Source: an uncultured Anaerolineae bacterium
GTDB taxonomy: Bacteria; Chloroflexota; Anaerolineae; B4-G1; SLSP01
Assembly (NCBI GenBank): GCA_965602565.1
Contig: CBFCZM010000001.1
Location: 1 to 40,027 of the forward strand
DNA: 40,027 bases
Direction: 5' to 3'
The notes under the pieces were generated by a model, which saw nothing but the letters and a program-made list of their open reading frames with translations, was not told where the DNA came from and made no database searches. Shown piece by piece: positions 1-26,988 of this stretch (its first letter is position 1; each line of letters opens with the position of its first letter). A program made the position numbers and the translations under genes.

Positions 1-1758
1 TCCCGGTATTCACTCATATCCACCCGTAGAAGCGCGTCCTTATCATCAAACAAGAACGCCGCCAGGGCTTTCGCAGTCTCGGTCTTGCCCACACCGGACG
101 GACCCAGGAAAAGGTAACTACCGATGGGACGACGGGGATCCTTGAGCCCTGCACGGGCGCGCCGGATTGCATCCGCAATCACACCGATGGCCTCGCCCTG
201 GCCCACGATGTACTCGCAGAGTGCCTCCTCCATCCGCAACAACTTGTCGGCCTCTTTCTCCATCACCTGATACACCGGAATGCCGGTCCACACCGAAACG
301 ATGTCGGCAATGTCTTCCGCCTCCACCGTCTCATCCAGTTGATGGCGATTCAGCCACTCCTCGCGCTGCTCGGCGAACTCCTGTTCCAGCCGCAGGCGCT
401 GCGTCTTGGCATCGGCGGCCCGCTCATAGTCGCGCATACTGCCCGCCGCCTCTTCCTCAACCCCCAGGCGGTTGATCTCCGCCTCCTTGGCCTTCAGATC
501 AGGAGGCAAGGTGAAGAGCGTCACGCGCAGCTTGGCGGCAGCCTCATCCATCAGATCGATAGCCTTATCCGGCAGGTGGCGATCAGGCACGTACCGGTGC
601 GAGAGTCGCGCCGCAGCCACCAAAGCCTCATCGCTGATGCGTACCTTGTGGTGTGCCTCATACCGATCCCGCAAACCGCGCAGCATCTCAATAGTGTCCT
701 CGACCAAGGGTTCTTCCACAAACACCGGGGCAAACCGGCGCTCCAACGCGCCGTCCTTCTCGATATACTGGCGGTACTCATCCAGCGTCGTGGCCCCGAT
801 GCACTGCAACTCACCGCGAGCCAGAGCAGGCTTGATCATATTGGAAGCATCCAGAGATCCTTGGGCGTTGCCGGCGCCGACTACCGTGTGCAGCTCATCG
901 AGGAAGAGGATATTCTCCCCCTGGGAGCGCTGAAGCTCCTCAAGAATCGACTTCAGGCGTTCCTCAAACTCTCCCCGGAACCGCGTCCCGGCGACCAAGG
1001 CCCCCAAATCCAACAGGAGCAGGTTCTTGCCCTTGAGGATCTCGGGCACATCATCGTTGGTGATATTCTGTGCGAGCCCTTCCACGATCGCCGTCTTTCC
1101 CACACCCGGCTCGCCGATCAGCACGGGATTGTTCTTTGTGCGTCGGACCAGGATCTGGATCACCCGTTGGATCTCTTTTTCTCGTCCGATCACTGGGTCC
1201 AGCTTGTGCTCCCGGGCAGACTGGGTGAGATCCCGGCTGAAGCGAGCCAGCGTACGGAACTTCGATTCAGCCTGCGGGCTGGTGACCCGTTGCCCCCCGC
1301 GCATGCTAACGATCGTCTCGCGGACCCGCTCGCGCGTGACGCTGTTGTCGCGCAGTAACTTCGAGACCGGAGTGTTCTGCTCAACCGTAATGGCGAGCAG
1401 CAGATGCTCCGTGGAGATGTACTCGTCCTTGAGCGCCGTGGCTTCCTCTTGGCTCAGGTCGAGGATGCGTTTCATCCTTGGGGTGATGAAGACCTGTTGA
1501 TTGCCGCGAGCCCCGTAGATCCCCGGGCGGGGATTGTCACGCAGCAGTGCATCCAGCGCCTCACTTAACTGAAGCGGTTCGGCGCCCAGTTCCTTTAGAA
1601 TGGCGGGAACCGTGCCCTCCTTCTGCTGGATGAGCGACAGCAACAAGTGTTCTACATCGACCTGGCTATGGCCATAACGTGTCATCAGCTCCACAGCCCG
1701 CTGGGCTGCTTCCTGAGCTCGTTCGGTGAAACGATCAAAGCGCATCATAGGCGACATA
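1..1758 (-). CDS. clpC: Clp/Hsp100 AAA+ chaperone-ATPase, ClpC-type, N-terminal ~586 aa (3' end runs off the window start)
   Basis: Reverse-strand translation from the ATG at 1758 starts [19 protein letters not shown]. It shows Clp_N-type repeats, NBD1 Walker [18 protein letters not shown] (nt ~1081-1130), a short UVR-like middle region ([15 protein letters not shown], nt ~400-460) and NBD2 Walker [18 protein letters not shown] (nt ~61-120). There is no stop before the window edge, so it is absent from the ORF track. About 345 aa between the two Walker A motifs favours ClpC over ClpB. Confidence 0.85.
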
Positions 1759-1763
1759 CCCCC

Positions 1764-2486
1764 TTACAAGCCAAGCGCGCCGTTCGTATAGGTGATCAGG
1801 GCTGCACGTGCAGCGGCCTGTTCCGCCATACGCTTGCTCGCGCCGGTTCCCTGTCCGGCAACGTCCACACCGACCAGAACCTGGGAGGTAAATGTCTTCG
1901 CGTGATCGGGGCCGGCCTCGTCAACAATCTGGTAGGCCGGTGTCTTGCCGAGCTCGGCCTGGGTCCACTCCTGGAAACGGGACTTTGCATCAACATAGGA
2001 CTCAGCGTCAAGAATCGCCTCAGCCCTACGGGCAAACCACGGCTCCAACCGGGACCAAATGACACTCAGCCCTCCGTCAAGATAGAGTGCACCGACAGCA
2101 GCCTCCAGGGCATCACACAGGTTCGCGGCACGCTCACTACCTCCGCTCTCCTCCTCACCCCGCCCAAGCCGGAGAGCGAAGCCAAGCTCCAGTTCACGAG
2201 CCAGGCTCGCCAGCGTCGTAGTGCGAACCAGAGTTGCGCGCAGGCGCGTCAATGGTCCTTCAGGGAAATCCCGGTACGTACGATACAGCCATACGGCGAC
2301 CAGGAAATCCAGGACTGCATCTCCCATGAACTCCAGACGCTGGTTGTGATGCTCTTCACCGCCCTCTTCGGGATGTTCGTGAGCATACGATGGGTGCGTG
2401 AGTGCCAGTTCCAGAAGTGTCAGGTCCCGAAATGTATACTGTAGGTTTGCTTGGATTCTGAGTAGGGGATCTTCACTCTTACCCAT
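1764..2486 (-). CDS. rnc: Ribonuclease III
   Basis: RNase III signature NQRLEFMGDAVLDFLVAVWLY preceded by LALTHPSY, with a C-terminal dsRBD-like region. I prefer the ATG at 2486 (MGKSEDPLL, with GGGAGA 4-5 nt upstream). The longest ORF starts at 2540. Confidence 0.9.
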   Translation of the reverse strand: MGKSEDPLLRIQANLQYTFRDLTLLELALTHPSYAHEHPEEGGEEHHNQRLEFMGDAVLDFLVAVWLYRTYRDFPEGPLTRLRATLVRTTTLASLARELELGFALRLGRGEEESGGSERAANLCDALEAAVGALYLDGGLSVIWSRLEPWFARRAEAILDAESYVDAKSRFQEWTQAELGKTPAYQIVDEAGPDHAKTFTSQVLVGVDVAGQGTGASKRMAEQAAARAALITYTNGALGL

Positions 2487-4559: not shown

Positions 4560-7463
4560 ATGCGCTTCTGGACAAAGGTGCTTTCAGGGATCGGCGTCGT
4601 CCTGCTAAGTACAGCCACCGGCACCCCAGGCCGTGCCGGACTGGGTGCGGCTGCGTCCGAGATCCCCACCATCCGAGACACCGCGCCGTCGCGCCCCGAA
4701 GCTCTTCTTCCCGCGCCGGTGCCTCTCAGACTGAGAATCGGCACATTCGATCCGCTGCTGACTTCGCCAAAGGTGCCGGCGGCGCTGCAACGCAGCCCTG
4801 CAGCGGGAGCACCTTCACTGCAGCTGGTGCAATTCCCAGGACCTATCCAGGACAGCTGGTATGCCGCACTACAAGACGCAGGTTTGGGCATCGTGCTCTA
4901 CATCCCGGACTACACATATCTAGTCTGGGGAACAGAAGCTGCGGTGCGTGAGCTGGCGACCGGATCACAGGTTCGATGGACGGGCAGTTACGAGGCATCC
5001 TATGCACTGCACCCCAGACTTCAGCAGTCGCTCGACGAGCCATCTGCCGGCCCCGCCGTCGTGCAGGTCTACGACCATGCAGGCGCTGAGATGACCCTTG
5101 CCACGATCCGGGCGCTAGCCACAGAGGTCGTGCGACCGGCAGAGACTGTCGGACACCTGACCAATCTGGGTATCCGCGTAACGGGGACCAACCTCTCACA
5201 GATTACGACCCTCCCCGAGGTGATCACCGTCGAACCATTGCTCCACCCGGACCGTCTGGACGAGATACAGGGCCAGATCATGGCCGGCAACCTTACACCG
5301 GATGGAGGCCGGCCGGCAGCAACCGGATACCTGACGTGGTTGACCGCGACCGTTGGGTTCACCACAACCCCGGAGGTCTACCCCATAATCGACATCACCG
5401 ACGACGGCATCGATGATGGCGATGTGACGCCTCAGCATGCCGACTTCTACGAAGACGGCGACCCCGGCAAACCGGACCGGTTGATCTACAACGCAAACTG
5501 GACCACGGACCCGACCGCCGACGGAGGTGGCGGCCACGGCAACATCAACGCAGCCATTGCCGGCGGCTACAATGGACTGGCCGGCGCGCCTTACGAAGAC
5601 GCCAACGGCTACAACCTCGGATTGGGAATCAACCCATTTGGCCGTGTCGCGGGGTCCAAGGTCTTCGGCAACACCAGCGGCTGGGCTTTTCCCAGGTATA
5701 CTGACCTGGTTGCCGGGTCCTATTCTGGTGGCGCCCGCATCATCTCTAATTCCTGGGGAGACACGGATGGCGACGGCTCGTATCTGGTCGCCGATCAGAC
5801 CTATGACGCCCTGGTGCGCGATGCCGATTCTGCCGCCCCGGGAGAGCAGCCTGTGACGATTGTCTTCTCGGCCGGCAATTCCGGCAACGGGGCCAGTACC
5901 ATCGGTTCGCCGGCCAACGCCAAGAACGTCATCACGGTCGGTGCCACGGAGAGCTACCGGCCCACATGGACCGATGGATGCGGTGTCAACGCCGCCGCAG
6001 CTGACAACGCCAACGATATTCCCGGGTTCTCCAGCCGCGGCCCCACGACGGATGGTCGTGTGAAGCCCGAGTTGGTTGCACCGGGGACCCATATCCAGGG
6101 CGCTGCATCCCAGACGGCGAATTACACCGGCTACTATGTATGTGACAGGTACTATCCCAGCAGTCAGACGCTCTACGCGGCCTCCTCGGGCACAAGCCAT
6201 GCAACCCCCGCGGTCGCGGGCGCCGCCTCGCTGCTGACCTACTTCTATCAGGATCAAGTCACAGCCGCCGCTCCCAGCCCGGCGATGGTCAAGGCTTACT
6301 TGGTCAGCTCCGCGCGCTATCTCAACGGCGTCAGCACCGGTGACACGCTCCCCTCAAACAACCAGGGATATGGCGCCGTGGACCTGGGTATTGCCTTCGA
6401 CGACACTCAGCGGATTGTGCACGACCAACACACCGTGCTCCATACGACAGGTGAGTCCCACGTGATCCAGAGTTCTGTCGCCCAGAGTGATAGGCCCCTC
6501 AGGATCACCCTGGCCTGGACTGATCCTCCTGGCCCAACCGTTGGGGCGGCCTACGTCAATGATCTCGATCTCGTCGTGACCGTCGAGGGGCAGACCTACC
6601 TGGGAAACGTCTTCTCCGGTGCCCACTCGGTCGCAGGCGGCAGTGCCGATCCCCGCAACAATGTGGAGGGCGTCTTCTTGCCCGCCGGCCTTCACGGCAG
6701 CCTCACGATCACGGTTGCGGCGACCAATCTGGCCAGTGACGGCGTGCCGGCCGATGTAGATCCTACCGATCAGGACTTCGCACTGGTCTGCTACAACTGC
6801 CAGCAGGAGAGCCCCTTCGCCCTGTCGATCACGCCCTCTGAACTGGCCATATGCCGTCCCGACACGGCCATTTTCACAGTGACCACCTCGCCGGCGTCCG
6901 GGTTTGACAACGACATCGCGCTCGCGGCGACAGATGTACCCACTGATGCCGTGGCCCTGTTTACCCCCAATCCGGTCACAGCCGGCGACACTAGCCGACT
7001 CACAGTTAGCATGACCACAGCCACCACGACAGGCACCTACCAGCTTGCCATCGCCGGCGCCGCGCAGACCCACGCCGTGACGACAACCGCTACACTGAAC
7101 GTCAGGACCACTCCAGAGGGACAGGCAGCCCTGATCAGCCCGGCTAGTGGGACCTCAACGACCACCGCCTCGCTGCCACCACTGGCGTGGGCACCCATCG
7201 CGGGCGCAACGCGCTATACCGTTGCCGTCGCCACCGACCCTGAGGTCTCGACGGCGGTCTACATCACCACCACCCAGGCGCTCACGCATACCATACCGCG
7301 GGATCTGGCGCCGGACACGACCTACTATTGGCAGGTGACTGGCTCGAATCTATGCGGGCCCGGCATCCCCTCACCCATCTTCAGCTTCACCCTCGAACGC
7401 CGGGGCCTCCTTCACTACTACCTACCCCTGTTCTTCATCCCCCCTGCCGACGAGGCCAATTGA
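4560..7463 (+). CDS. Secreted subtilisin-like serine protease (peptidase S8) with C-terminal beta-sandwich/Fn3-like domains
   Basis: N-terminal signal-like segment MRFWTKVLSGIGVVLLSTATG. Catalytic motifs: Asp IIDITDDGIDDG, His GGGHGNINAAIAGG, oxyanion Asn IISNSWGD, Ser SGTSHATPAVAGAASLL. A P/fervidolysin-like domain follows (LRITLAWTDPPG, DLDLVV), then repeated T/A-rich Ig/Fn3-like modules. Confidence 0.9.
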   Translation: MRFWTKVLSGIGVVLLSTATGTPGRAGLGAAASEIPTIRDTAPSRPEALLPAPVPLRLRIGTFDPLLTSPKVPAALQRSPAAGAPSLQLVQFPGPIQDSWYAALQDAGLGIVLYIPDYTYLVWGTEAAVRELATGSQVRWTGSYEASYALHPRLQQSLDEPSAGPAVVQVYDHAGAEMTLATIRALATEVVRPAETVGHLTNLGIRVTGTNLSQITTLPEVITVEPLLHPDRLDEIQGQIMAGNLTPDGGRPAATGYLTWLTATVGFTTTPEVYPIIDITDDGIDDGDVTPQHADFYEDGDPGKPDRLIYNANWTTDPTADGGGGHGNINAAIAGGYNGLAGAPYEDANGYNLGLGINPFGRVAGSKVFGNTSGWAFPRYTDLVAGSYSGGARIISNSWGDTDGDGSYLVADQTYDALVRDADSAAPGEQPVTIVFSAGNSGNGASTIGSPANAKNVITVGATESYRPTWTDGCGVNAAAADNANDIPGFSSRGPTTDGRVKPELVAPGTHIQGAASQTANYTGYYVCDRYYPSSQTLYAASSGTSHATPAVAGAASLLTYFYQDQVTAAAPSPAMVKAYLVSSARYLNGVSTGDTLPSNNQGYGAVDLGIAFDDTQRIVHDQHTVLHTTGESHVIQSSVAQSDRPLRITLAWTDPPGPTVGAAYVNDLDLVVTVEGQTYLGNVFSGAHSVAGGSADPRNNVEGVFLPAGLHGSLTITVAATNLASDGVPADVDPTDQDFALVCYNCQQESPFALSITPSELAICRPDTAIFTVTTSPASGFDNDIALAATDVPTDAVALFTPNPVTAGDTSRLTVSMTTATTTGTYQLAIAGAAQTHAVTTTATLNVRTTPEGQAALISPASGTSTTTASLPPLAWAPIAGATRYTVAVATDPEVSTAVYITTTQALTHTIPRDLAPDTTYYWQVTGSNLCGPGIPSPIFSFTLERRGLLHYYLPLFFIPPADEAN

Positions 7464-7529: not shown

Positions 7530-7557
7530 TTGACACGTGGACCAATCCCGGTAGAAT
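7530..7557 (+). promoter_or_regulatory. Sigma-70-type promoter upstream of the Mo-hydroxylase-like gene
   Basis: TTGACA (7530-7535), 16 nt spacer, TAGAAT (7552-7557), about 40 nt upstream of the ATG at 7597, which has GGTGAGGA as its SD. Confidence 0.5.
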
Positions 7558-7596: not shown

Positions 7597-10500
7597 ATGT
7601 TGATCTCGGTGACCTTGAATGGCGAGAGGCGTCAGTTTGGTGTCGCTCCGCAAGAGACGCTGTTCCGCCTTCTGCGACGTGAGGGATTGCATGGCGTCAA
7701 GTTTGGCAGCGAGGACGGCTCGGACGGTTACAGTACCGTGTTGGTCAACGGGCGCCCGCACAGCAGTGTCGTGTTGCTGGCGGCCCAGGCCGACGGTGCG
7801 GAGATCGTCACCGTGGAAGGGCTGAGCGAAGGTCGCCAATTGGGCTGGCACCGTCAAAGCGCCTACCACCCGCTGCAGAAAGCCTTTGTCGAAACCGGCG
7901 CCATCCAGAGCGGCTACGATACCCCTGCCTTGATCCTCGCCGGTCTGGCACTCCTCACCCGCACCGCCAGCCCCACCGAAACCGAAGTCCGTGACGCTAT
8001 CAGTGGGATTGTTTCCCGCGAGACCGGGCATGTCAAACCCGTGGACGCCATTCTGCGCGCAGCGGCCTACCTACGTGGTGACACCCCCCCACCGATCGGC
8101 GGAGAATCGGGCGCGGACCTCTTCGTGATGCCGGACACGCTGTTACCCTCCGGAGAAGCCCTGGCCGAAAGCTCACCTGCTGATGATATCGGGCCGTCTG
8201 AGTCGGGGAGCACCTCGAGCGGTGGTGTACAAACACGGATCAAAGCCCTGCCCACGGTCTTTGTAACTGCAGAATCCCAGGAATTCACCGTCGTCGGGCA
8301 GCCGCTGCCAAAGGTTGATGCCCCGAAACTGGCACGGGGACATGCCGCGTTCGTCGCCGATTTTGAGCGGCCGGGCATGCTCTACGGCAAGATCCTGCAC
8401 AGTCCCCACGCCCACGCGCGGATCAAGGATATCGACACCCACGATGCCGAGGCCCTACACGGCGTCCGTGCGGTGCTCACATATAAGAACGTGCCCCACG
8501 TCATCTACTCCACCGCTGGGCAATCCTACCCCATACCCGGGCCTCTCGACTACGTCAGCTTCGACAACAAGGTGCGTTACGTCGGTGATCGGGTTGCGGC
8601 CGTGGCAGCTGACACCCCGGAGATCGCTGAGGAAGCGCTTTCGCTGATCCGCATAGACTACGAGGTCCTCCCTCCTGTACTCGACCTCGACGCGGCGATG
8701 GCGGAGGGCAGCCCTATCATCCACGATGAGGAGGACTACGTCCCCTTCGGCGAGAGCGATCCCACAAAGAATCTCGTCGCCAAGGTCAAGATCGATGTCG
8801 GTGACGTTGACGCGGCCTGCGAACGAGCGGCTCACGTCTTCGAGACAACCGTGGATACGCAGCGAATGAAGCACGTGCCGCTGGAACCATGGGTGACCCT
8901 GACCTACTGGGATGAGGACGATCGACTCGTCATCCTGACGTCCACACAGGTCCCATTCCACGTGCGCCGTATCCTGGCCCCCGTGTTGGGCCTGTCGGAA
9001 CGCCAGATTCGTGTGATCAAGCCGCGCATCGGCGCGGCCTTCGGCAACAAGCAGGAGATCTACGAGGATATCCCGGCCCATCTGACCATCGCGACCGGTC
9101 GCCCGGTCCTGCTCAAACTCACGCGCGAGGAGCAGTTCATCTACACAACCACACGCCATCCGATGCGCGTCAAGTTCCGCATCGGCGTCGACGACGACGG
9201 GACGATGGTGGCACAGGATATGCGGGCACTGAGCGATACGGGCGCCTACGGTGGCCATGGGCTTACGGTCCTGGGCAACACCGGCCACAAAACGCTGCCC
9301 ATCTATGACACCCCGAATGTCCGCTTCTGGGGCGAGACCTACTACACGACGCTGCCGCGAGCCGGCGCCTTTCGGGGCTACGGTGTAACACAAGGTGTAG
9401 TGGCGACAGAGACGCTGATCACGCAGGCCGCCCGCGAATTGGGATGGGATCCTCTGGAGTTCCGGTTGAAGAACATCATCTCCCCGCACACCGAGAACAT
9501 TATGAGCAAGACGTGGAGCGAGGGGCGTGAGGCGCGCGGCGAGATCATTGAGACTAACGCCCTCCGCGAGGCCGCCATTCAGGGCGCATCGGCGGTGGGT
9601 TGGGTCCAGAAGTACGGGAATGCGCAATGGCACACGGTATTGGGGAAACCCCATCTGCGCCGCGGGATCGGGGTGGCATTCTTGATGCAGGGGTCCGGCA
9701 TTCCCAACCTCGACATGGCGGCGGCCAGTATGAAGATGAACGACGATGGCTCTTTCAACCTGATGATGGGGGCAACAGACCTGGGCACGGGGTCGGACAC
9801 AGTGTTGGGCCAGATCGCGGCTGAAGTAGTGGGATGCGGCTTGGACGATCTGATCATCCGCTCTTCCGATACCGACGTCACGCCGTTCGACAAGGGGGCC
9901 TACGCCTCCAGCACGACTTACATCAGCGGCGGCGCGGTCGCGCGCGCGGCGGAGGATGTGGCACGGCAGATCAAAGCCGTAGCCGCCGATATGGCCGGTG
10001 GCGAAGCCGGTGACTTCACGTTGGGGCAGGGGCGCGCCTGGCGCGACGATGGGCTGAGCCTCAGCTTCCGCGAGATCGCACTGCACGCGTTGCACACACA
10101 GAACCAGCACCAGATTATGGGGCATGCATCATTCGTGAGCCCCGTAAGCCCACCGCCCTTCGCTGCGCAGTTCGCCGAGGTCACCGTCGATACGGAGACC
10201 GGGCAGACTACGGTCGACAATCTTCTGATTGCTCTGGATTCGGGCCAGATCATCAATCCATTGACAGCCAGCGGGCAAGCCGAAGGAGGCATGCATCAGG
10301 CCCTGGGATATGCGCTGACGGAGGAGTTGATCTACGACGCTCAAGGCCGGACTGTGAACCCACGCTTTGACGACTACCGTGTCTTCCGCGCCGACGAAAG
10401 TCCGCCTATGCAAACGCTCTTCATCGAAACCTTCGAACCCTCTCACCCGGTCGGGGCCAAATCGGTGGCCGAGATCGTCGTCAATGGTGTGACGCCGGCA

Positions 10501-10614
10501 GTACTGAATGCCATCCACGATGCTACTGGTATCATGCTTAAGCAAACTCCAGCCACTCCGGAGCGATTGTGGAAAGCACTACAAGCCCAGGCGCCGCCAA
10601 AGGTTACAGCATAA
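7597..10614 (+). CDS. Single-chain xanthine dehydrogenase/aldehyde oxidase/CoxSL-family protein: cysteine-less [2Fe-2S]-like N-domain fused to a molybdopterin-binding domain
   Basis: Residues 1-165 have the CoxS/XdhA-small-subunit fold pattern (TVEGL, HPLQ, SPTETEVRDAISG). After a ~70-aa linker comes the a/b-hammerhead (GHAAFVADF, LHSPHAHARIKDID, VRYVGDRVAAVAA) and Mo-binding lobes (TSTQVPF, IGAAFGNK, TTTRHPM, GAFRGYG, DLGTGSDTV, FAEVTVDTETG, GAKSVAE). Confidence 0.9.
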   Translation: MLISVTLNGERRQFGVAPQETLFRLLRREGLHGVKFGSEDGSDGYSTVLVNGRPHSSVVLLAAQADGAEIVTVEGLSEGRQLGWHRQSAYHPLQKAFVETGAIQSGYDTPALILAGLALLTRTASPTETEVRDAISGIVSRETGHVKPVDAILRAAAYLRGDTPPPIGGESGADLFVMPDTLLPSGEALAESSPADDIGPSESGSTSSGGVQTRIKALPTVFVTAESQEFTVVGQPLPKVDAPKLARGHAAFVADFERPGMLYGKILHSPHAHARIKDIDTHDAEALHGVRAVLTYKNVPHVIYSTAGQSYPIPGPLDYVSFDNKVRYVGDRVAAVAADTPEIAEEALSLIRIDYEVLPPVLDLDAAMAEGSPIIHDEEDYVPFGESDPTKNLVAKVKIDVGDVDAACERAAHVFETTVDTQRMKHVPLEPWVTLTYWDEDDRLVILTSTQVPFHVRRILAPVLGLSERQIRVIKPRIGAAFGNKQEIYEDIPAHLTIATGRPVLLKLTREEQFIYTTTRHPMRVKFRIGVDDDGTMVAQDMRALSDTGAYGGHGLTVLGNTGHKTLPIYDTPNVRFWGETYYTTLPRAGAFRGYGVTQGVVATETLITQAARELGWDPLEFRLKNIISPHTENIMSKTWSEGREARGEIIETNALREAAIQGASAVGWVQKYGNAQWHTVLGKPHLRRGIGVAFLMQGSGIPNLDMAAASMKMNDDGSFNLMMGATDLGTGSDTVLGQIAAEVVGCGLDDLIIRSSDTDVTPFDKGAYASSTTYISGGAVARAAEDVARQIKAVAADMAGGEAGDFTLGQGRAWRDDGLSLSFREIALHALHTQNQHQIMGHASFVSPVSPPPFAAQFAEVTVDTETGQTTVDNLLIALDSGQIINPLTASGQAEGGMHQALGYALTEELIYDAQGRTVNPRFDDYRVFRADESPPMQTLFIETFEPSHPVGAKSVAEIVVNGVTPAVLNAIHDATGIMLKQTPATPERLWKALQAQAPPKVTA

Positions 10615-10636: not shown

Positions 10637-10672
10637 GGCGGCGCCCCTAGAAGCGCCGCTCTTTTCTTGTTT
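10637..10672 (+). terminator. Intrinsic terminator after the Mo-hydroxylase-like gene
   Basis: 7-bp GC stem gcggcgc (10638-10644) pairs with gcgccgc (10653-10659). The loop is 8 nt, followed by the T-rich run tcttttcttgttt. Confidence 0.6.
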
Positions 10673-10779
10673 GGCATGCTAATCTCCTATACGGGGGCGA
10701 CGTCCAGGAGAGATTGCGATCGGGGCACCGGCCCGGACAGCAATTAGAGAACCGTATCCCCGATCAGCAGGAGGGAGGA

Positions 10780-12669
10780 ATGGAAAGGATGAATTGGGAA
10801 AAGTATCATCTACCAGAAGACGTGACCGAGGTGCTTGCGAAGAGCCCCAGCGTCACCGTCATCAGCACCATCAACGAATTGGTGAACTTGGCGTGTGGCG
10901 GGCTGGGCAGCAGCCACTTTGAGGTCACCTACGACTTGCCGGAGCAAGGCCAGGTCGTTGAGGCGATCGTGGCACGCGTCCGGAATGGCGTATCGGTCAA
11001 CTATCAGGAGCCGTATATGCGACGGCGCGACCCCGACTGCCTGGTGATCGCGGACAACCTGGCCACGGACAAACCCACCTTCCGGCAGCGATACGGCGAA
11101 GACTTCGAAGGTATGCGCTCGGCGACCTTTGAGTGGCTGGCGGAACAGCCGCTGGCTATGTTCGGCTACACCGCCGGGCAACCCGGCATGGGGATGGATT
11201 CTGTCGTCATCGCTCCCGCCAACGCCGGATTCTTCGCCCTGAGCCTGGCACTGCTCCAGGGCATCGTTCCGGAGAGCGAGATCCCCGGTGATTTCGTCCC
11301 CCGGTCCATCATCTACGTGGCTCCTGTCTTCCGGCACACGCACTTTTCCGGCAAGCAGGTTGTCGTGCACAACCGGCTGCCCGACATGCATGAAGTCTTC
11401 TCCTACAACCTCTACCCGGGGCCTAGCGCCAAGAAGGGCGTCTACGGTATGCTCATCACGCAGGGCGAGCGGGAAGGATGGGTCACCACGCACTGCTCAA
11501 CCGTAAGAGTTGTGACGCCCTACGACAACGTGACCACTATGATGCACGAAGCCGCCAGCGGCGGCGGCAAGAGCGAGCTACTGGAACACGCGCACCGTGA
11601 GGACGACGGGCGGATGCTGTTGGGCGAAAACATGCTCACCGGTGAACGCCGCTACATAGAGATCCCGCGCACATGTAAGCTTGAGCCCGTCGCAGATGAC
11701 ATGGCGCTCTGCCACCCGTCGCTCCAACATGGCTCGGGCAAGCTTTCGGTAGCAGACGCCGAAGATGCCTGGTTCCTGAGGGTCAACCATATCGACCACT
11801 ACGGCACCAATGTGCATCTGGAACGCCTCACCGCTGAGCCGACGGTCCCCCTCCTCTTCTTGAACATCTACGCTGTCCCCGGCAGCCGCGCATTGATCTG
11901 GGAACACATTGAGGATTCGCCAGGAGAACCGTGCCCCAACCCTCGGGTCGTGATCCCACGGCGTCTATTCCCCAATATCGTCAACGAGCCAGTGGAAGTC
12001 GACATCCGTAGCTTCGGTGTGCGGACACCCCCGTGCACCGAGGACCACCCCACATACGGCATCATCGGTCTGTTCCACATTCTGCCGCCAGCCTTGGCTT
12101 GGCTGTGGCGGCTGGCGGCACCGCGGGGATATGACAACCCAAGCATCGTCGATACCGAGGGGATGAGCAGTGAGGGCGTTGGCTCCTACTGGCCCTTTGC
12201 GACCGGACGACGCGTCGATCAGGCCAACCTGTTGCTGGCCCAATTCAGGAACAACCCGAACACCCGCTACGTCCTCTGCCCGAACCAACACGTGGGTGTC
12301 TGGCACACGGGATTTATGCCCGAATGGATTATGCGCGAATATCTGGCCCGCCGTGGTACGGCGAGGTTCAAGCCTGAGCAAATCCGGCCCGCGCGCTGTG
12401 CGCTGCTCGGCTATGCGCTGCACCAGTTCCAGGTGGAGGGCCGCTTTGTCTCGCGCTGGTTCCTCCAGGTTAACACACAGCCGGAGGTGGGCACCTCCGG
12501 CTATGATGATGGCGCCCAGCAACTCTACGACTTCTTCAGTGAACAGCTCAATCTGTATCTCACTGAGGATCTGGATCCCCTGGGACGCGCCATCATCGAC
12601 TGTTTCATGGACCGGGGATCGGTATCGGACTACAATGGACTTATCCCCGCGGTTGACTTGACAGACTAG
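10780..12669 (+). CDS. PEPCK/HprK-like P-loop protein of unknown function (possibly the DUF4914 family, from memory)
   Basis: Start ATG at 10780 follows GGAGGGAGGA; the ATG at 10789 is an alternative, and the longest ORF starts at 10714. P-loop EAASGGGKSELLEH resembles HprK/P GxSGxGKSE. Downstream, GLFHILPPALAWLWRLAAPRGYDNPSIVDTEGMSSEGVGSYWPF resembles the PEPCK-ATP segment DAFGVLPPVS.L...A.YHFLSGYTAK.AGTE. About 630 aa with no TM segments. Confidence 0.75.
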   Translation: MERMNWEKYHLPEDVTEVLAKSPSVTVISTINELVNLACGGLGSSHFEVTYDLPEQGQVVEAIVARVRNGVSVNYQEPYMRRRDPDCLVIADNLATDKPTFRQRYGEDFEGMRSATFEWLAEQPLAMFGYTAGQPGMGMDSVVIAPANAGFFALSLALLQGIVPESEIPGDFVPRSIIYVAPVFRHTHFSGKQVVVHNRLPDMHEVFSYNLYPGPSAKKGVYGMLITQGEREGWVTTHCSTVRVVTPYDNVTTMMHEAASGGGKSELLEHAHREDDGRMLLGENMLTGERRYIEIPRTCKLEPVADDMALCHPSLQHGSGKLSVADAEDAWFLRVNHIDHYGTNVHLERLTAEPTVPLLFLNIYAVPGSRALIWEHIEDSPGEPCPNPRVVIPRRLFPNIVNEPVEVDIRSFGVRTPPCTEDHPTYGIIGLFHILPPALAWLWRLAAPRGYDNPSIVDTEGMSSEGVGSYWPFATGRRVDQANLLLAQFRNNPNTRYVLCPNQHVGVWHTGFMPEWIMREYLARRGTARFKPEQIRPARCALLGYALHQFQVEGRFVSRWFLQVNTQPEVGTSGYDDGAQQLYDFFSEQLNLYLTEDLDPLGRAIIDCFMDRGSVSDYNGLIPAVDLTD

Positions 12670-16378: not shown

Positions 16379-17983
16379 CTACGGTATGGTGTCCGGCAAC
16401 GACGGCGGTGCAATCCGAACCTTGACCTCTGGCTTGGACGCCTCAATGAGGCGATCAACGCCCAATAAGGGGACGACGACGCGGACCGTCCCTATCGTCG
16501 GCACAGTGAAGGACAACTGCCCCTGGTCATCTGTATATCCCTGCGCCAGTTCCCGCTGCCCATCAGGTGACAGCACCTGAATGAAGAAGCCCGTGACACC
16601 CTCACCGGCCCCCATCGCTCCATCCTGATCCGCATCGAGATATGCGATCACCCGGAACGTCCGGAAGCCGGTCGGCTCAGGGGTTTCCACCGGCGGCTCA
16701 GGGCGTGTCACAAGCCGGAACGTCAACTCCACATCCTCCGCGACAACTGGGGGCGGCGTGGGCGTGGCAACAGCAGGCGCTTGCAGCGTGGGGGTCGGCG
16801 CCGGTGTCGGCATATCGTTGTCCACGATTGGGGTCTGCCCCGGTTGCGGCGTTGGATCTCCCAGCACCGAGAGATCGCAGGTCACCGCGTAATCGCTGCT
16901 CACCGTGTCCCGGGTTGCCATGCGCGCCCCCTGCCCAATGAGAATATAGACGTAACCCTCATAGGTAGCGTAATACGAGAGCCGGCTGTTGAAGTCGCCC
17001 AATGCGATGTCGTCGTTGGCCATCAAGTAGTTCTGCTCACTCGCCCCGCTGTAGAACACCATCCGCGGATCCACCGCAGGACCGAGATCCGAGGTCTCGC
17101 AGGTCAGCTGCAGACCGGGCTTGACCCGGATCTTCAGAAAGTCATTGTCCACATCCCCGCCGCCCCAGGGAACGAAGTTCATGTTGTAGGTTAGCCCCGG
17201 AGCAATCGTCGTGGCAATGTTGAAATCGAAGTTCGGCTCATACTGATCGAAGCCCGTCATCCAGGTCGACCCGGGTTGCGGCGTGGCTGTCGGTCCGGGC
17301 GTGGTCGTTGCGGTTGGCGAGGGTGTCGGTGTCGGCGCCGTGTAGTTGTAGATCAGGCTGTAAGTATCACCCGTGCACTGCGCGCTGACCTGGAATACCT
17401 CGACGTAGTAAGGGCCGTAATCATCCGGGATCAACGTGACGATGGCATAGTAGGTAGACGTATCGATGTCGGCGAGAACCTCTTGCTGATGCATGTCGTA
17501 GACACGGATACCGAGATTGTAGTTCAACGTCCTATCAGGCTTGGCCTGGATTGTGTACTTGGCCCCGATGACGGCATTGTCGAGACGGTAGAAATCGGAC
17601 TCCGTAGGAATGAAAGAAGCTGGCGGATCATTGGTGCTTGAGATCAGTGACAGGTCCGTGTAGTTGGAGACCTGGATATTGGTTCCGAAGCCGTGGTTAT
17701 TCCACGTAGTATCCGTCGTCGTCGTTGACGTCGTCTCAAGCGTGCAGCTGATCGCGCTCTGCACGAGCGTAAGGTCCGGCAAGGTACGGTATGAACTGAG
17801 CAGTGGCCGATCGCTGTGGATGGGCAGCGCCGCAGCCACAGGGAGATCAGCCGCAAATCCAGGGACAGCCACCGTGGTCCCTTGGCCGCCCAGCAACAGC
17901 CATACCAGGCTCAACATCACCAGGGAGCTTCCGACTAGACCCGCCAGGGTCAGGACACGCCTGGGAACCGTCTGAAAGCTCAT
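16379..17983 (-). CDS. Secreted/anchored protein with two PPC-like (pre-peptidase C-terminal) domains, PT-rich linkers and a C-terminal Cna-B/CarboxypepD_reg-like domain
   Basis: Preferred ATG at 17983 ([31 protein letters not shown], signal/anchor) with GGGAGA upstream; the longest ORF starts at 18055. PPC-like segments are [22 protein letters not shown]...IRVYD and [18 protein letters not shown]...VYILIG. PT linkers are [19 protein letters not shown] and PTPAPTPT. C-terminal [33 protein letters not shown]...[11 protein letters not shown]. Confidence 0.75.
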
Positions 17984-18056
17984 TTCTCGTCTCCCGGGAG
18001 GTTCGTCAATCCGCACACCATCCGGATAGCCGAGCCCCAACCACGGATTGCACACT

Positions 18057-26591: not shown

Positions 26592-26988
26592 TGGTGGAGA
26601 TGGCGGGAATCGAACCCGCGTCCGAAGAATTCGACGGTGAGCATCTACAAGCGTAGTCGGCGATTTTGGTTTCGCGCGGGGGTCGTTGCCGACCACGCCC
26701 ATCCGCGCTGAGCCGATTGGTCTTGGACTGGCCTATCGGCGTCTACCAGTCTGCACGCCTACTTTATTTCACCTGGCTCCACCACGTATGCGAGATGGTG
26801 AAGGGGCGTGGCCGGATACCCGGTCAGGTCTTGGGTCTAGTCACCTACTGCTTACGCAGCGACGGCGACCGGTGCCCAATTGTTTGCCATATTGTTGGCA
26901 GTTTAGGTTTGCTTCTGGGTTTACGGAGACGAAGCCTCCCCGGCTCGCAGCCCACGGCCAGCCTCCCCCGTCGAAACCGATCATCCCC
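26592..26988 (-). ncRNA. ssrA: tmRNA (SsrA)
   Basis: Minus strand starts GGGGATGATCGGTTTCGACGGGGG and ends GGGTTCGATTCCCGCCATCTCCACCA. The acceptor stem pairs with a G3-U wobble. The internal tag reading frame GCA AAC AAT TGG GCA CCG GTC GCC GTC GCT GCG TAA encodes ANNWAPVAVAA* (26852-26887). Confidence 0.9.

What the first reader, a model, noticed from the sequence alone, without database searches (positions are those of the whole stretch)
7597..8091. All eight [2Fe-2S] cysteine ligands replaced, at exact canonical spacing, in a fused molybdenum-hydroxylase-family protein
The 1005-aa ORF has the single-chain architecture of XO-family enzymes: a double [2Fe-2S] module, a linker, an a/b-hammerhead and Mo-pterin lobes (compare D. 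gigas MOP or a CoxS-CoxL fusion). The N-terminal 165 aa align without gaps to the family ligand pattern C-x4-C-x2-C-x11-C ... C-x2-C-x31-C-x-C. Every ligand column is nevertheless non-Cys: S38, D43, S46, V58, S105, D108, S140 and E142 (GSEDGSDGYSTV; HSSVVL; IQSGYDTPA; GIVSRETGH). Residues 1-170 contain no cysteine at all, and I count only two in the whole protein. Neighbouring non-ligand motifs are well kept (TVEGL, HPLQ, SPTETEVRDAISG). The Mo domain keeps its hallmarks, including TSTQVPF, AFGNK, TTRHP, GAFRGYG and the active-site Glu context GAKSVAE. So the fold looks maintained while the only known intramolecular electron wire of this family cannot be bound in the usual way. Eight independent codon changes cannot be a sequencing error. 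This suggests either a Mo enzyme with a non-canonical electron path or a non-redox role, or a pseudoenzyme. I know of no described cysteine-less member of this family.
Basis: partly seen in the sequence, partly recalled or inferred. Interest (0 to 1): 0.72.

Follow-up and report, generated by a model that had tools for sequence, protein, structure and literature searches.

The report
Molybdenum hydroxylase without its iron-sulfur wire
This gene encodes a well-conserved xanthine-oxidase-family molybdenum enzyme that keeps the fold of its two iron-sulfur domains but has lost all eight cluster-binding cysteines, and E. coli's own XdhD turns out to share this overlooked trait, so how such enzymes move electrons is an open, testable question.

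Summary
ORF 7597..10614 (+, 1005 aa) has the single-chain FeS-module + hammerhead + Moco-domain architecture. All eight [2Fe-2S] ligand columns are non-Cys (S38 D43 S46 V58; S105 D108 S140 E142), and the protein has only two Cys (C408, C747).

It is neither an error nor a decaying gene. About 79 protein clusters from Anaerolineae MAGs share the state. The N-terminal module evolves under purifying selection as strong, relative to the Mo domain, as in Cys-bearing relatives. Every Mo-site hallmark residue is invariant.

The loss appears stepwise. A sister group keeps the distal cluster (CCCC) but has already lost the Moco-proximal one (S-[DE]-S-E). Neither group has the FAD-subunit gene that accompanies 38 of 43 canonical relatives.

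The loss is also recurrent. At least three further lineages lost one or both clusters independently. One is E. coli K-12 XdhD, still annotated "Fe-S binding" and shown in 2025 to reduce urate.

Best reading: an active Moco enzyme with a vestigial, structural ferredoxin-like module and no canonical electron wire. The turnover route is inferred, not shown.

New variant of a known kind; interest 0.62.

The parts
7530..7557 (+). sigma-70-like promoter (TTGACA-16-TAGAAT, 11/12), about 40 nt upstream of the ATG
   Evidence: consensus scan only; 7 sites found against 1.6 expected in the region
7597..10614 (+). CDS, 1005 aa: fused FeS-like module + linker + a/b hammerhead + two Moco-binding domains (XO/molybdenum-hydroxylase family)
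7597..7809 (+). Residues 1-71: plant-ferredoxin-like sub-domain (site of the distal cluster Fe/S II in canonical enzymes). No Pfam Fer2 hit. Predicted folded (pLDDT 79-95).
7708..7770 (+). Former distal-cluster ligand codons: S38 (AGC), D43 (GAC), S46 (AGT), V58 (GTC). Conservation in the clade: S 99%, D 80%, S 97%, V 55% (rest I/T/A).
7834..7857 (+). Residues 80-87: family-specific insertion between the two sub-domains (contains invariant G83 W84). Low model confidence.
7810..8052 (+). Residues 72-152: Fer2_2 helical sub-domain (site of the Moco-proximal cluster Fe/S I in canonical enzymes). Pfam hit above threshold despite having no Cys.
7909..8022 (+). Former proximal-cluster ligand codons: S105 (AGC), D108 (GAT), S140 (TCC), E142 (GAG). 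Each is at least 99% conserved in 75 clade members, with synonymous codon variation.
8092..8292 (+). Residues 166-232: fast-evolving linker, predicted disordered (pLDDT below 50 for 168-218)
8338..8673 (+). Ald_Xan_dh_C a/b-hammerhead domain (res 248-359)
8767..9477 (+). MoCoBD_1 (res 391-627), including TSTQVPF (448-454), AFGNK (481-485), TTRHP (518-522) and GAFRGYG (590-596). These are invariant across relatives that keep, partly lack or fully lack the Cys ligands.
9511..9531 (+). Residues 639-645, the W-S-E-G-R motif. E642 aligns with E. coli XdhD E606 (reported to orient urate). The segment is absent from E. coli XdhA.
   Evidence: PMC12507026
9643..10404 (+). MoCoBD_2 (res 683-936)
10453..10473 (+). 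GAKSVAE (res 953-959). E959 is the catalytic-Glu column, aligned to GAKEASE of 4-hydroxybenzoyl-CoA reductase alpha.
10637..10670 (+). Terminator-like GC-rich hairpin plus T-tract, 23 nt after the stop codon. With the promoter it suggests a monocistronic unit.
   Evidence: pattern scan only

Best explanation
[quoted passage not shown] It belongs to a fused lineage related to XdhA+XdhC and XdhD and has lost both [2Fe-2S] clusters. The two ferredoxin-like sub-domains persist as a cluster-free structural module that packs against the Mo domains and helps form the pterin pocket. The loss was stepwise. First the Moco-proximal cluster (Fe/S I) was lost together with the adjacent FAD-subunit gene, which cut the Mo -> Fe/S I -> Fe/S II -> FAD wire. 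The now-orphan distal cluster was lost later. Because the Mo site is unchanged but no internal relay or FAD partner remains, the Mo centre is most likely turned over directly at the active site. That means a ping-pong of two substrates, or of a substrate and a small diffusible reductant or oxidant, at Mo (hydroxylation/dehydroxylation, i.e. hydroxyl transfer or dismutation). The substrate is probably a purine-like N-heterocycle. SHOWN: ligand loss, its conservation, purifying selection, Mo-site invariance, absence of a FAD gene nearby, independence from other loss lineages. INFERRED: the structural role of the module, the order of events, and above all the turnover route and the substrate.
For: (1) The ligand columns are all non-Cys and the whole protein has only 2 Cys, so no Cys-ligated cluster is possible.
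(2) The clade is real: 76 full-length clusters at 70-93% identity and 24 non-redundant DNA loci share the state. Clade bootstrap is 100%.
(3) There is no relaxation of selection. NG86 omega is 0.16 (res 1-71), 0.12 (72-165) and 0.095 (Mo domains). dN relative to the Mo domain is 1.88 and 1.09 in this clade, against 1.96 and 1.23 in all-Cys relatives. Close pairs (dS 0.26-0.6) give omega 0.01-0.22.
(4) The proximal-site replacements S105/D108/S140/E142 are at least 99% conserved with synonymous variation.
(5) All 27 checked Moco/active-site hallmark positions, including Q451, K485, R520, R593, Y595 and E959, are invariant in all four ligand-state groups.
(6) The fold is kept: AF2 pTM 0.82, N-module pLDDT about 80-95, whole-chain Foldseek hit to D. 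gigas MOP with TM 0.83.
(7) A FAD-subunit gene lies within the flanks of 38/43 all-Cys loci (39/44 with L114) but of 0/13 proximal-lost and 0 of about 25 all-lost loci. No extra XO-family or FeS-subunit gene lies near any of the latter two groups.
(8) The gene has its own promoter-like and terminator-like sites.
(9) A and B share S-[DE]-S-E plus 11 other derived substitutions, 14 shared sites in all, and group together in the NJ tree.
(10) Precedent for activity without the ligands: E. coli XdhD also lacks all eight, yet purified XdhD-YgfM reduces urate to 2,8-dioxopurine (PMC12507026). The query family shares XdhD's E606-bearing insertion.
(11) The canonical route is Mo -> Fe/S I -> Fe/S II -> FAD, with Fe/S I on the C-x2-C//C-x-C motif next to the pterin (PMC8615798 and PMC3624778).
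(12) From my own knowledge, not tested here: Mo-only ping-pong catalysis has precedents (NADPH-dependent biotin sulfoxide reductase; anaerobic dismutation of xanthine by xanthine oxidase).
Against: No biochemical data exist for this clade. Cofactor content, substrate and turnover route are all unknown.
A+B monophyly has only 50% NJ bootstrap on the Mo domain, so the order of losses rests partly on shared derived residues.
Many dS values are near saturation (median pS 0.62-0.69).
As a set, the eight replacement residues are not significantly more conserved than the domain background (6 of 8 at 90% or more, against 52% background; P = 0.17).
Absence of a FAD gene was tested only within +/-6-8 kb, so a partner could be encoded elsewhere.
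E. coli XdhD keeps a translationally coupled FAD subunit and uses NADH. So at least one cluster-less lineage still receives electrons from a flavin by an unknown route, which weakens the 'everything happens at Mo' inference.
The AF2 model has no cofactors and I could not inspect coordinates.
Confidence: 0.6

Rival explanations
1. It is still a conventional redox enzyme, but the wire is supplied in trans. A separately encoded partner (ferredoxin, flavodoxin, flavoprotein or cytochrome) docks and exchanges electrons with the Moco directly or through a new path (for example aromatic residues or the pterin edge).
For: E. coli XdhD lacks the ligands yet co-purifies with the FAD subunit YgfM and uses NADH. 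Several other loss lineages keep a FAD gene next door (L064, L082, L041; about half of the distal-lost group). Both cluster-less groups A and B gained a conserved Trp (H432W), and A gained Y45 beside the former C46.
Against: There is no FAD, FeS or XO-family gene within +/-6-8 kb in about 38 A+B loci, and apart from DUF4914 no conserved neighbour at all. The gene looks monocistronic. In canonical structures the FAD is too far from Mo for direct tunnelling (own knowledge). The vestigial module still occupies the site where a small FeS subunit would dock.
Confidence: 0.2
2. It is a pseudoenzyme: a catalytically dead XO-family protein kept for a structural, regulatory or binding role.
For: Loss of every known electron-transfer cofactor and of the FAD partner. 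Low AF2 confidence in some cofactor loops such as 478-486, which is, however, usual for apo models.
Against: All Moco-binding and catalytic positions are 100% invariant in 25 clade members and identical to those of Cys-bearing relatives. Mo-domain omega is about 0.095, as low as or lower than in canonical clades. The cluster-less E. coli XdhD is active.
Confidence: 0.1
3. The former pockets still bind a metal centre through O-ligands. Either [2Fe-2S] clusters are bound by Ser/Asp/Glu, or a mononuclear Fe/Mn/Mg/Ca site in the S-D-S-E pocket acts as relay or structural ion.
For: S105/D108/S140/E142 are at least 99% conserved. An acidic residue at column 142 arose in at least four independent loss lineages although Cys->Glu needs three nucleotide changes. 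Two carboxylates restore the -2 charge of a [2Fe-2S](Cys)4 site (inference).
Against: No all-oxygen-ligated [2Fe-2S] cluster is known (own knowledge). The distal pocket has a hydrophobic V/I/T/A at column 58 and a variable D43. In other loss lineages column 108 is A or N and column 140 is D or I. The convergent carboxylate is explained equally well by a hydrogen bond to the pterin amino group, which in canonical enzymes contacts the last Fe/S I cysteine (own knowledge, not tested).
Confidence: 0.07
4. It is an artefact or a decaying gene: a sequencing or assembly error, or a recently inactivated copy.
For: None found.
Against: The same state occurs in dozens of independent assemblies. The ORF is intact, there is strong purifying selection and a 100% supported clade.
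Confidence: 0.01

Closest known systems
E. coli XdhD (YgfN, b2881; TIGR03313-type fused Mo/'Fe-S' subunit; urate -> 2,8-dioxopurine reductase with YgfM)
   Same: Single-chain FeS-like module + Mo domains. 36% identity over the full length. The N-terminus hits Pfam Fer2_2 but not Fer2 and has no Cys at any of the eight ligand columns. They share the W-S-E-G-R-type insertion carrying XdhD E606 = E642 here. Catalytic Glu and Moco motifs are conserved.
   Different: The loss is independent: different replacement residues (D-A-D-x / S-N-S-D), a separate 100%-supported clade, and 0% bootstrap for grouping with the query clade. XdhD keeps a translationally coupled FAD subunit (ygfM) and sits in the ygfK-ssnA uricolytic cluster, whereas the query has neither. 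The TIGR03313 score of 645 is far below the 1102 cutoff.
Canonical fused relatives in Anaerolineae/Chloroflexota (all eight Cys; e.g. P0113 in CP070811, L114)
   Same: 52-61% identity, same length and architecture, the same inter-domain insertion, identical Mo-site residues.
   Different: They have both clusters and, in 38/43 loci (39/44 with L114), a FAD_binding_5/CO_deh_flav_C subunit gene next to them. 46 positions are fixed differently in the query clade.
Desulfovibrio gigas aldehyde oxidoreductase (MOP; PDB 1sij/1vlb)
   Same: Single polypeptide with an N-terminal double ferredoxin-like module and Mo domains and no FAD domain. Best whole-chain structural match: TM 0.83 normalised to the target, 26% identity.
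   Different: MOP binds two [2Fe-2S] clusters through the eight Cys. The NCBIfam aldehyde-oxidoreductase model scores 412 against a 1100 cutoff. The query has a roughly 65-residue disordered linker.
4-Hydroxybenzoyl-CoA reductase alpha subunit (HcrA, PDB 1rm6_A) and E. coli XdhA
   Same: HcrA is the closest solved sequence for the Mo part (357 bits). XdhA_XDHase is the joint best NCBIfam model (645 bits). XdhA is 34% identical. 4-HBCR and XdhD are reductive dehydroxylases, showing that the fold works in both directions.
   Different: Both work with separate FeS (and FAD) subunits carrying all the Cys. Scores are below the family cutoffs (521 against 995; 645 against 780).

Membership tests
Xanthine oxidase / molybdenum hydroxylase family | a/b-hammerhead plus two Moco-binding domains | tested here: met
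   Pfam PF01315 (E 5e-29), PF02738 (E 2e-74), PF20256 (E 2e-67), all above gathering scores. Foldseek finds MOP, 4-HBCR, CODH, Qor and XDH.
Xanthine oxidase / molybdenum hydroxylase family | Catalytic glutamate and Moco-contact motifs (TQ, GxxFGxK, R-H, AFRGYG, GAKSxxE) | tested here: met
   E959 aligns with the Glu of GAKEASE in 1rm6_A. All motif positions are invariant in 113 family members. Mapping to bovine numbering (Q767, R880, R912, E1261) is from memory.
Xanthine oxidase / molybdenum hydroxylase family | Two [2Fe-2S] clusters bound by C-x4-C-x2-C-xn-C and C-x2-C-xn-C-x-C | tested here: not met
   All eight columns are non-Cys (S D S V / S D S E). There is no Cys in residues 1-170. The domain fold and the Fer2_2 profile match are retained.
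Xanthine oxidase / molybdenum hydroxylase family | FAD-binding subunit or domain (present in most members, absent in MOP) | tested here: not met
   tblastn with a clade-C FAD subunit finds none in the window (40 kb) or within the flanks of about 25 clade loci, against 38/43 canonical loci. A gene elsewhere in the genome cannot be excluded.
Xanthine oxidase / molybdenum hydroxylase family | Bound Mo-pyranopterin (MCD/MPT) with a terminal sulfido or selenido ligand; hydroxylase activity | not testable with these tools
   Needs purified protein (ICP-MS, EPR, activity). No Moco riboswitch lies upstream, which is uninformative.
E. coli XdhD / TIGR03313 (Se_sel_red_Mo) | Score at or above the NCBIfam trusted cutoff | tested here: not met
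   645 bits against a 1101.9 cutoff.
E. coli XdhD / TIGR03313 (Se_sel_red_Mo) | Placement inside the XdhD clade | tested here: not met
   EcXdhD+P0147+P0157 form a separate clade (100% bootstrap). Grouping with the query clade has 0% support.
E. coli XdhD / TIGR03313 (Se_sel_red_Mo) | Gene context: ygfM (FAD), ygfK, ssnA and other uricolytic genes | tested here: not met
   The window's neighbours are an S8 protease, DUF4914, a Cu-oxidase_4 protein, DnaJ, UvrD and so on. The E. coli context is.
E. coli XdhD / TIGR03313 (Se_sel_red_Mo) | Fused architecture with a Cys-less Fer2-like/Fer2_2 module; E606-bearing insertion | tested here: met
   This is a resemblance in how it is built. The trait arose independently.
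XdhA-type xanthine dehydrogenase (NF043082) | Score at or above the NCBIfam cutoff | tested here: not met
   645 bits against a 780 cutoff. 34% identity to E. coli XdhA.

The most novel reading that the evidence does not exclude
A sizeable, recurrently evolving set of xanthine-oxidase-family enzymes operates with Moco as the only redox centre. The set includes this Anaerolineae clade and E. coli XdhD. That would imply an undescribed way of cycling the Mo centre in this family: two-substrate hydroxyl transfer or dismutation at Mo, or direct hydride or electron delivery from NAD(P)H, flavin or F420 to the Mo site. The former Fe/S I pocket would have been converted into a carboxylate/Ser network that holds the pterin.
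Probability: 0.35. Interest if true: 0.85.

Novelty: new variant of a known kind. Interest (0 to 1): 0.62.

Why it matters
Textbook descriptions of the xanthine oxidase family treat the two [2Fe-2S] clusters as an obligatory wire between Moco and the external acceptor (PMC8615798, PMC3624778, PMC3958847).

Here a whole conserved clade has dispensed with the wire while keeping the catalytic site untouched. The same thing happened independently several times, including in E. coli XdhD. That enzyme is of current medical interest (gut urate degradation), and its electron path from YgfM/NADH to Mo has apparently never been questioned.

The natural series of all-Cys, proximal-lost and all-lost proteins, with matching loss of the FAD gene, is a ready-made experimental system. 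It can be used to ask what the FeS domains contribute besides electron transfer, and how a Mo hydroxylase can turn over without them.

It also exposes a systematic annotation error: "Fe-S binding" is assigned from a Fer2_2 profile hit alone.

Tried and rejected
1. DUF4914 as a functional partner. It is the only conserved neighbour (14 clade loci) and also follows the all-Cys relative L114. But it is absent next to the more divergent clade members (L001, L097-L100, L118, L120), and a terminator-like hairpin separates it from the Mo gene. Elsewhere (Limisphaerales, Oscillochloridaceae, another metagenome) it is not next to any XO-family gene. I rejected it as evidence of function. It has no PDB sequence homolog and no literature.

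2. Moco riboswitch or other RNA element upstream: none.

3. Neighbouring paralog supplying FeS domains: none in any all-lost or proximal-lost locus.

4. General Cys depletion of the organism as the explanation. Other window proteins average 0.56% Cys and this protein 0.20%. The background is low, but the loss is specific to this clade, since sister clades have 11-16 Cys.

5. Enrichment test for conservation of the replacement residues against the domain background: not significant (P = 0.17). I therefore do not claim that the pockets as a whole have a new function.

6. The first bootstrap run with Biopython NJ timed out. I redid it with a numpy NJ.

The metagenome scan supplied them.

8. Literature: seven searches and nine papers found no statement that XdhD or any XO-family member lacks the FeS ligands. 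Xi et al. 2000 could not be retrieved. The library covers open-access papers only.

9. The 50%-identity representative search added few close relatives. It did reveal further non-canonical fused proteins: P0123, P0147 and P0157.
Full report
OBSERVATION

The ORF at 7597..10614 (+) encodes 1005 aa. Pfam finds Fer2_2 (72-152), Ald_Xan_dh_C (248-359), MoCoBD_1 (391-627) and MoCoBD_2 (683-936), all above their gathering scores. It finds no Fer2 (PF00111) match. NCBIfam's best models are XdhA_XDHase and TIGR03313 (the E. coli XdhD type), each at 645 bits and both below cutoff. The small-subunit models (XdhC, glyceraldehyde-DH gamma, HcrC, PucE) match residues 3-160.

Residue-by-residue phmmer alignments to four solved [2Fe-2S] subunits place S38, D43, S46, V58, S105, D108, S140 and E142 on the eight ligand cysteines. 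BLASTP against E. coli XdhC does the same. The protein has only two Cys, C408 and C747. One correction: there is an 8-residue insertion (about 80-87) between the two sub-domains, so the alignment is not gapless. Both ligand motifs keep their exact spacing.

IS IT REAL AND MAINTAINED?

A search of 5.8 billion proteins returned 120 top hits that fall into three blocks.
- A: P0001-P0079, 70-93% identity, mostly named Anaerolineae MAG proteins. All eight columns are non-Cys, reading S-D-S-[VI] / S-D-S-E.
- B: P0080-P0096, 60-63% identity. These read CCCC / S-[DE]-S-E.
- C: P0097-P0120, 57-59% identity. These keep all eight Cys.
Total Cys falls from 12-16 per protein (C) and 10-14 (B) to 1-8 (A), mostly 1-6.

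DNA loci from genome and metagenome scans gave 24 non-redundant A loci, 13 B loci, 43-44 all-Cys loci and about 31 loci of a fourth state, D. State D reads D-[ST]-D-G / CCCC, meaning the distal cluster is lost and the proximal one is kept.

Nei-Gojobori estimates within A give omega 0.16 for residues 1-71, 0.12 for 72-165, 0.33 for the linker and 0.095 for the Mo domains. The ratio of dN in each N-terminal sub-domain to dN in the Mo domain is 1.88 and 1.09 in A, against 1.96 and 1.23 in the all-Cys group. Close pairs with unsaturated dS (0.26-0.6) give omega 0.01-0.22. The cluster-less module is therefore as constrained as a cluster-binding one.

The proximal-site replacements are at least 99% conserved over 75 sequences, with synonymous variation at D108, S140 and E142. 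The distal site is looser (D43 80%, V58 55%). As a set, the eight sites are not significantly more conserved than the domain background (P = 0.17).

AF2 with a 40-sequence alignment gives pTM 0.82 and pLDDT of about 80-95 in the module. The linker is predicted disordered. Foldseek's best whole-chain match is D. gigas MOP (TM 0.83 normalised to the target).

IS THE MO SITE INTACT?

All 27 hallmark positions I checked are invariant in A (25), B (13), all-Cys (44) and D (31). They include T450, Q451, G479, F482, G483, K485, Q486, E487, R520, H521, G590-G596, D765, G767-S772, G953, K955 and E959. E959 aligns with the active-site Glu context of 4-hydroxybenzoyl-CoA reductase alpha, the closest solved sequence at 357 bits.

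The family also carries the W-S-E-G-R insertion whose Glu (E642) aligns with E606 of E. coli XdhD. That residue is reported to orient urate, and the segment is absent from XdhA (PMC12507026). This points to a purine-like substrate, but it is only a lead.

CONTEXT

A FAD_binding_5/CO_deh_flav_C subunit gene lies within the flanks of 38 of 43 all-Cys loci. Four of the five exceptions have less than 2 kb of upstream DNA. The all-Cys locus L114 from the metagenome scan also has one. No such gene occurs in any of the 13 B loci or the roughly 25 A loci. No A or B locus has another XO-family gene or a small FeS subunit nearby, whereas many all-Cys loci do.

The only conserved neighbour in A is DUF4914, on the same strand in 14 loci, 130-400 bp downstream in 13 of them and about 3.2 kb in L089. 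It is missing from the more divergent A members. A terminator-like hairpin separates it from the Mo gene. It is not linked to XO-family genes outside Anaerolineae. I treat it as synteny.

The gene has a near-consensus promoter-like site at 7530-7557 and a terminator-like hairpin at 10637-10670. The rest of the window is ordinary chromosome: S8 protease, DnaJ-domain protein, UvrD, ABC1 kinase, SurE, holB, a glycogen phosphorylase-like protein, Rho, CdsA and tmRNA.

EVOLUTION

A neighbour-joining tree on 754 Mo-domain columns, with 200 bootstraps, supports A at 100%, B at 100% and A+B at 50%. A+B plus a subset of all-Cys proteins (L003, L005, L010, L042, L061) gets 52%.

A and B also share 14 derived residues relative to the all-Cys and D groups. 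These include S105, S140, E142, H432W, E513Q and C659A. The most economical history has two steps. First the proximal cluster was lost together with the FAD gene, giving the B-like state. Then the orphan distal cluster was lost, giving A.

Other loss lineages are separate.
- E. coli XdhD + P0147 + P0157: 100% support as a clade, 0% for grouping with A.
- STAD[DE]SADE proteins (L064, L082, L083): 100% as a clade, 0% with A.
- L079 (DTDQSNDE).
- L041 (DSDGSCDE), nested in D.
- The D group itself.

Across these independent losses of the proximal site, column 105 is always Ser. Column 142 is nearly always Glu or Asp, although Cys->Glu needs three base changes. From memory of the MOP and XDH structures, the last Fe/S I cysteine contacts the pterin amino group. 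A carboxylate there could keep that contact. I could not test this without model coordinates.

E. COLI XdhD

Translating b2881 from NC_000913.3 shows no Cys in the first ~190 residues. The ligand columns read D-A-D-x / S-N-S-D. Its N-terminus scores 50 bits on Fer2_2 with no Fer2 hit, the same signature as the query. RefSeq calls it "molybdopterin-binding subunit and Fe-S binding subunit".

Li et al. 2025 purified XdhD with a ~30 kDa protein, putatively YgfM, and showed NADH-dependent reduction of urate to 2,8-dioxopurine. The paper never mentions [2Fe-2S] or cysteine. The parallel preprint describes the Clostridium enzyme as having FeS domains. No paper in seven searches notes the missing ligands. 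So the trait exists in a model organism and is compatible with activity, but as far as I can see it has gone unremarked.

MECHANISM

The canonical route is Mo -> Fe/S I -> Fe/S II -> FAD, with the pterin between Mo and Fe/S I (PMC8615798, PMC3624778). In the query neither cluster can be bound, no FAD partner is nearby, and the Mo site is unchanged.

I therefore commit to the following reading: an active Moco enzyme in which the ferredoxin-like module is structural and the Mo centre is cycled directly at the active site by a second substrate or a small redox molecule (confidence 0.6 for the whole statement). The parts on ligand loss, maintenance and Mo-site integrity are shown. The turnover route is inferred.

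Rivals: a trans-acting redox partner (0.2), a pseudoenzyme (0.1), O-ligated metal sites acting as relay (0.07), and artefact or decay (0.01).

LIMITS

- The trees are NJ only.
- dS is partly saturated.
- Absence of a FAD gene was tested only locally.
- I had no access to model coordinates.
- The literature search covers open-access text only.
- Mapping to bovine and MOP residue numbers, and the Mo-only precedents, are from my own knowledge.

Noticed in passing
L151 11317-14187 (E. coli K-12 NC_000913.3, xdhD b2881): E. coli XdhD is annotated as a fused Mo-binding and 'Fe-S binding' subunit, yet it has no cysteine at any of the eight [2Fe-2S] ligand columns (D-A-D-x / S-N-S-D) and none in its first ~190 residues. 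It still has a translationally coupled FAD subunit (ygfM) and is reported to be active with NADH. How electrons pass from FAD to Mo is unexplained.
   Followed up: partly
L008-L076 (e.g. L019 8001-10970, L013, L021, L045): About 31 Anaerolineales/Chloroflexota species genomes carry a fused homolog that has lost only the distal (plant-ferredoxin-type) cluster (D-[ST]-D-G) but keeps the proximal CCCC. This is the opposite order to the query lineage. About half still have a FAD-subunit gene within 8 kb.
   Followed up: partly
window 10714-12669 (+): A DUF4914 protein (Pfam 1026 bits) lies just downstream. The family is unusually conserved (67-93% identity in the top 120 hits, including Verrucomicrobiota and Chloroflexia; more than 8000 homologs) and contains a P-loop-like ASGGGKSE motif. 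It has no PDB sequence homolog and no paper mentions it. Function unknown.
   Followed up: partly
window 26592-26988 (-): A full-length tmRNA gene (Rfam RF00023, 149 bits).
   Followed up: no
window 4560-7463 (+): A large S8 subtilase (967 aa) with a long Thr/Ala-rich C-terminal extension lies directly upstream. It is conserved in that position in the closest relatives (L084, L091, L092, L115, L116).
   Followed up: no
L083 1742-4711 and 5896-8613: Two full-length fused XO-family genes lie in tandem. The first has all eight ligands lost (STADSADE). The second is only 29% identical to the query, and I did not examine its ligand state.
   Followed up: no
window 7834-7857 (res 80-87) and homologs: There is a family-specific insertion with invariant G83-W84 between the two ferredoxin-like sub-domains. 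It is present in all Anaerolineae relatives whatever their ligand state, and absent from E. coli XdhD, XdhC and all PDB homologs. Model confidence is low and its role is unknown.
   Followed up: no
window 339-1355 (+), 1647-2441 (+), 16382-18055 (-): Three long ORFs (339, 265 and 558 aa) have no Pfam match at E <= 0.001. I did not check whether they are real genes.
   Followed up: no
P0080-P0096; L002, L004, L103-L113: In the clade that lost only the proximal cluster, the retained distal CCCC cluster can no longer be wired to Moco, yet it is conserved in all members. Its sub-domain evolves somewhat faster relative to the Mo domain (dN ratio 2.69, against about 1.9-2.0 elsewhere). The role of this orphan cluster is unexplained.
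   Followed up: partly
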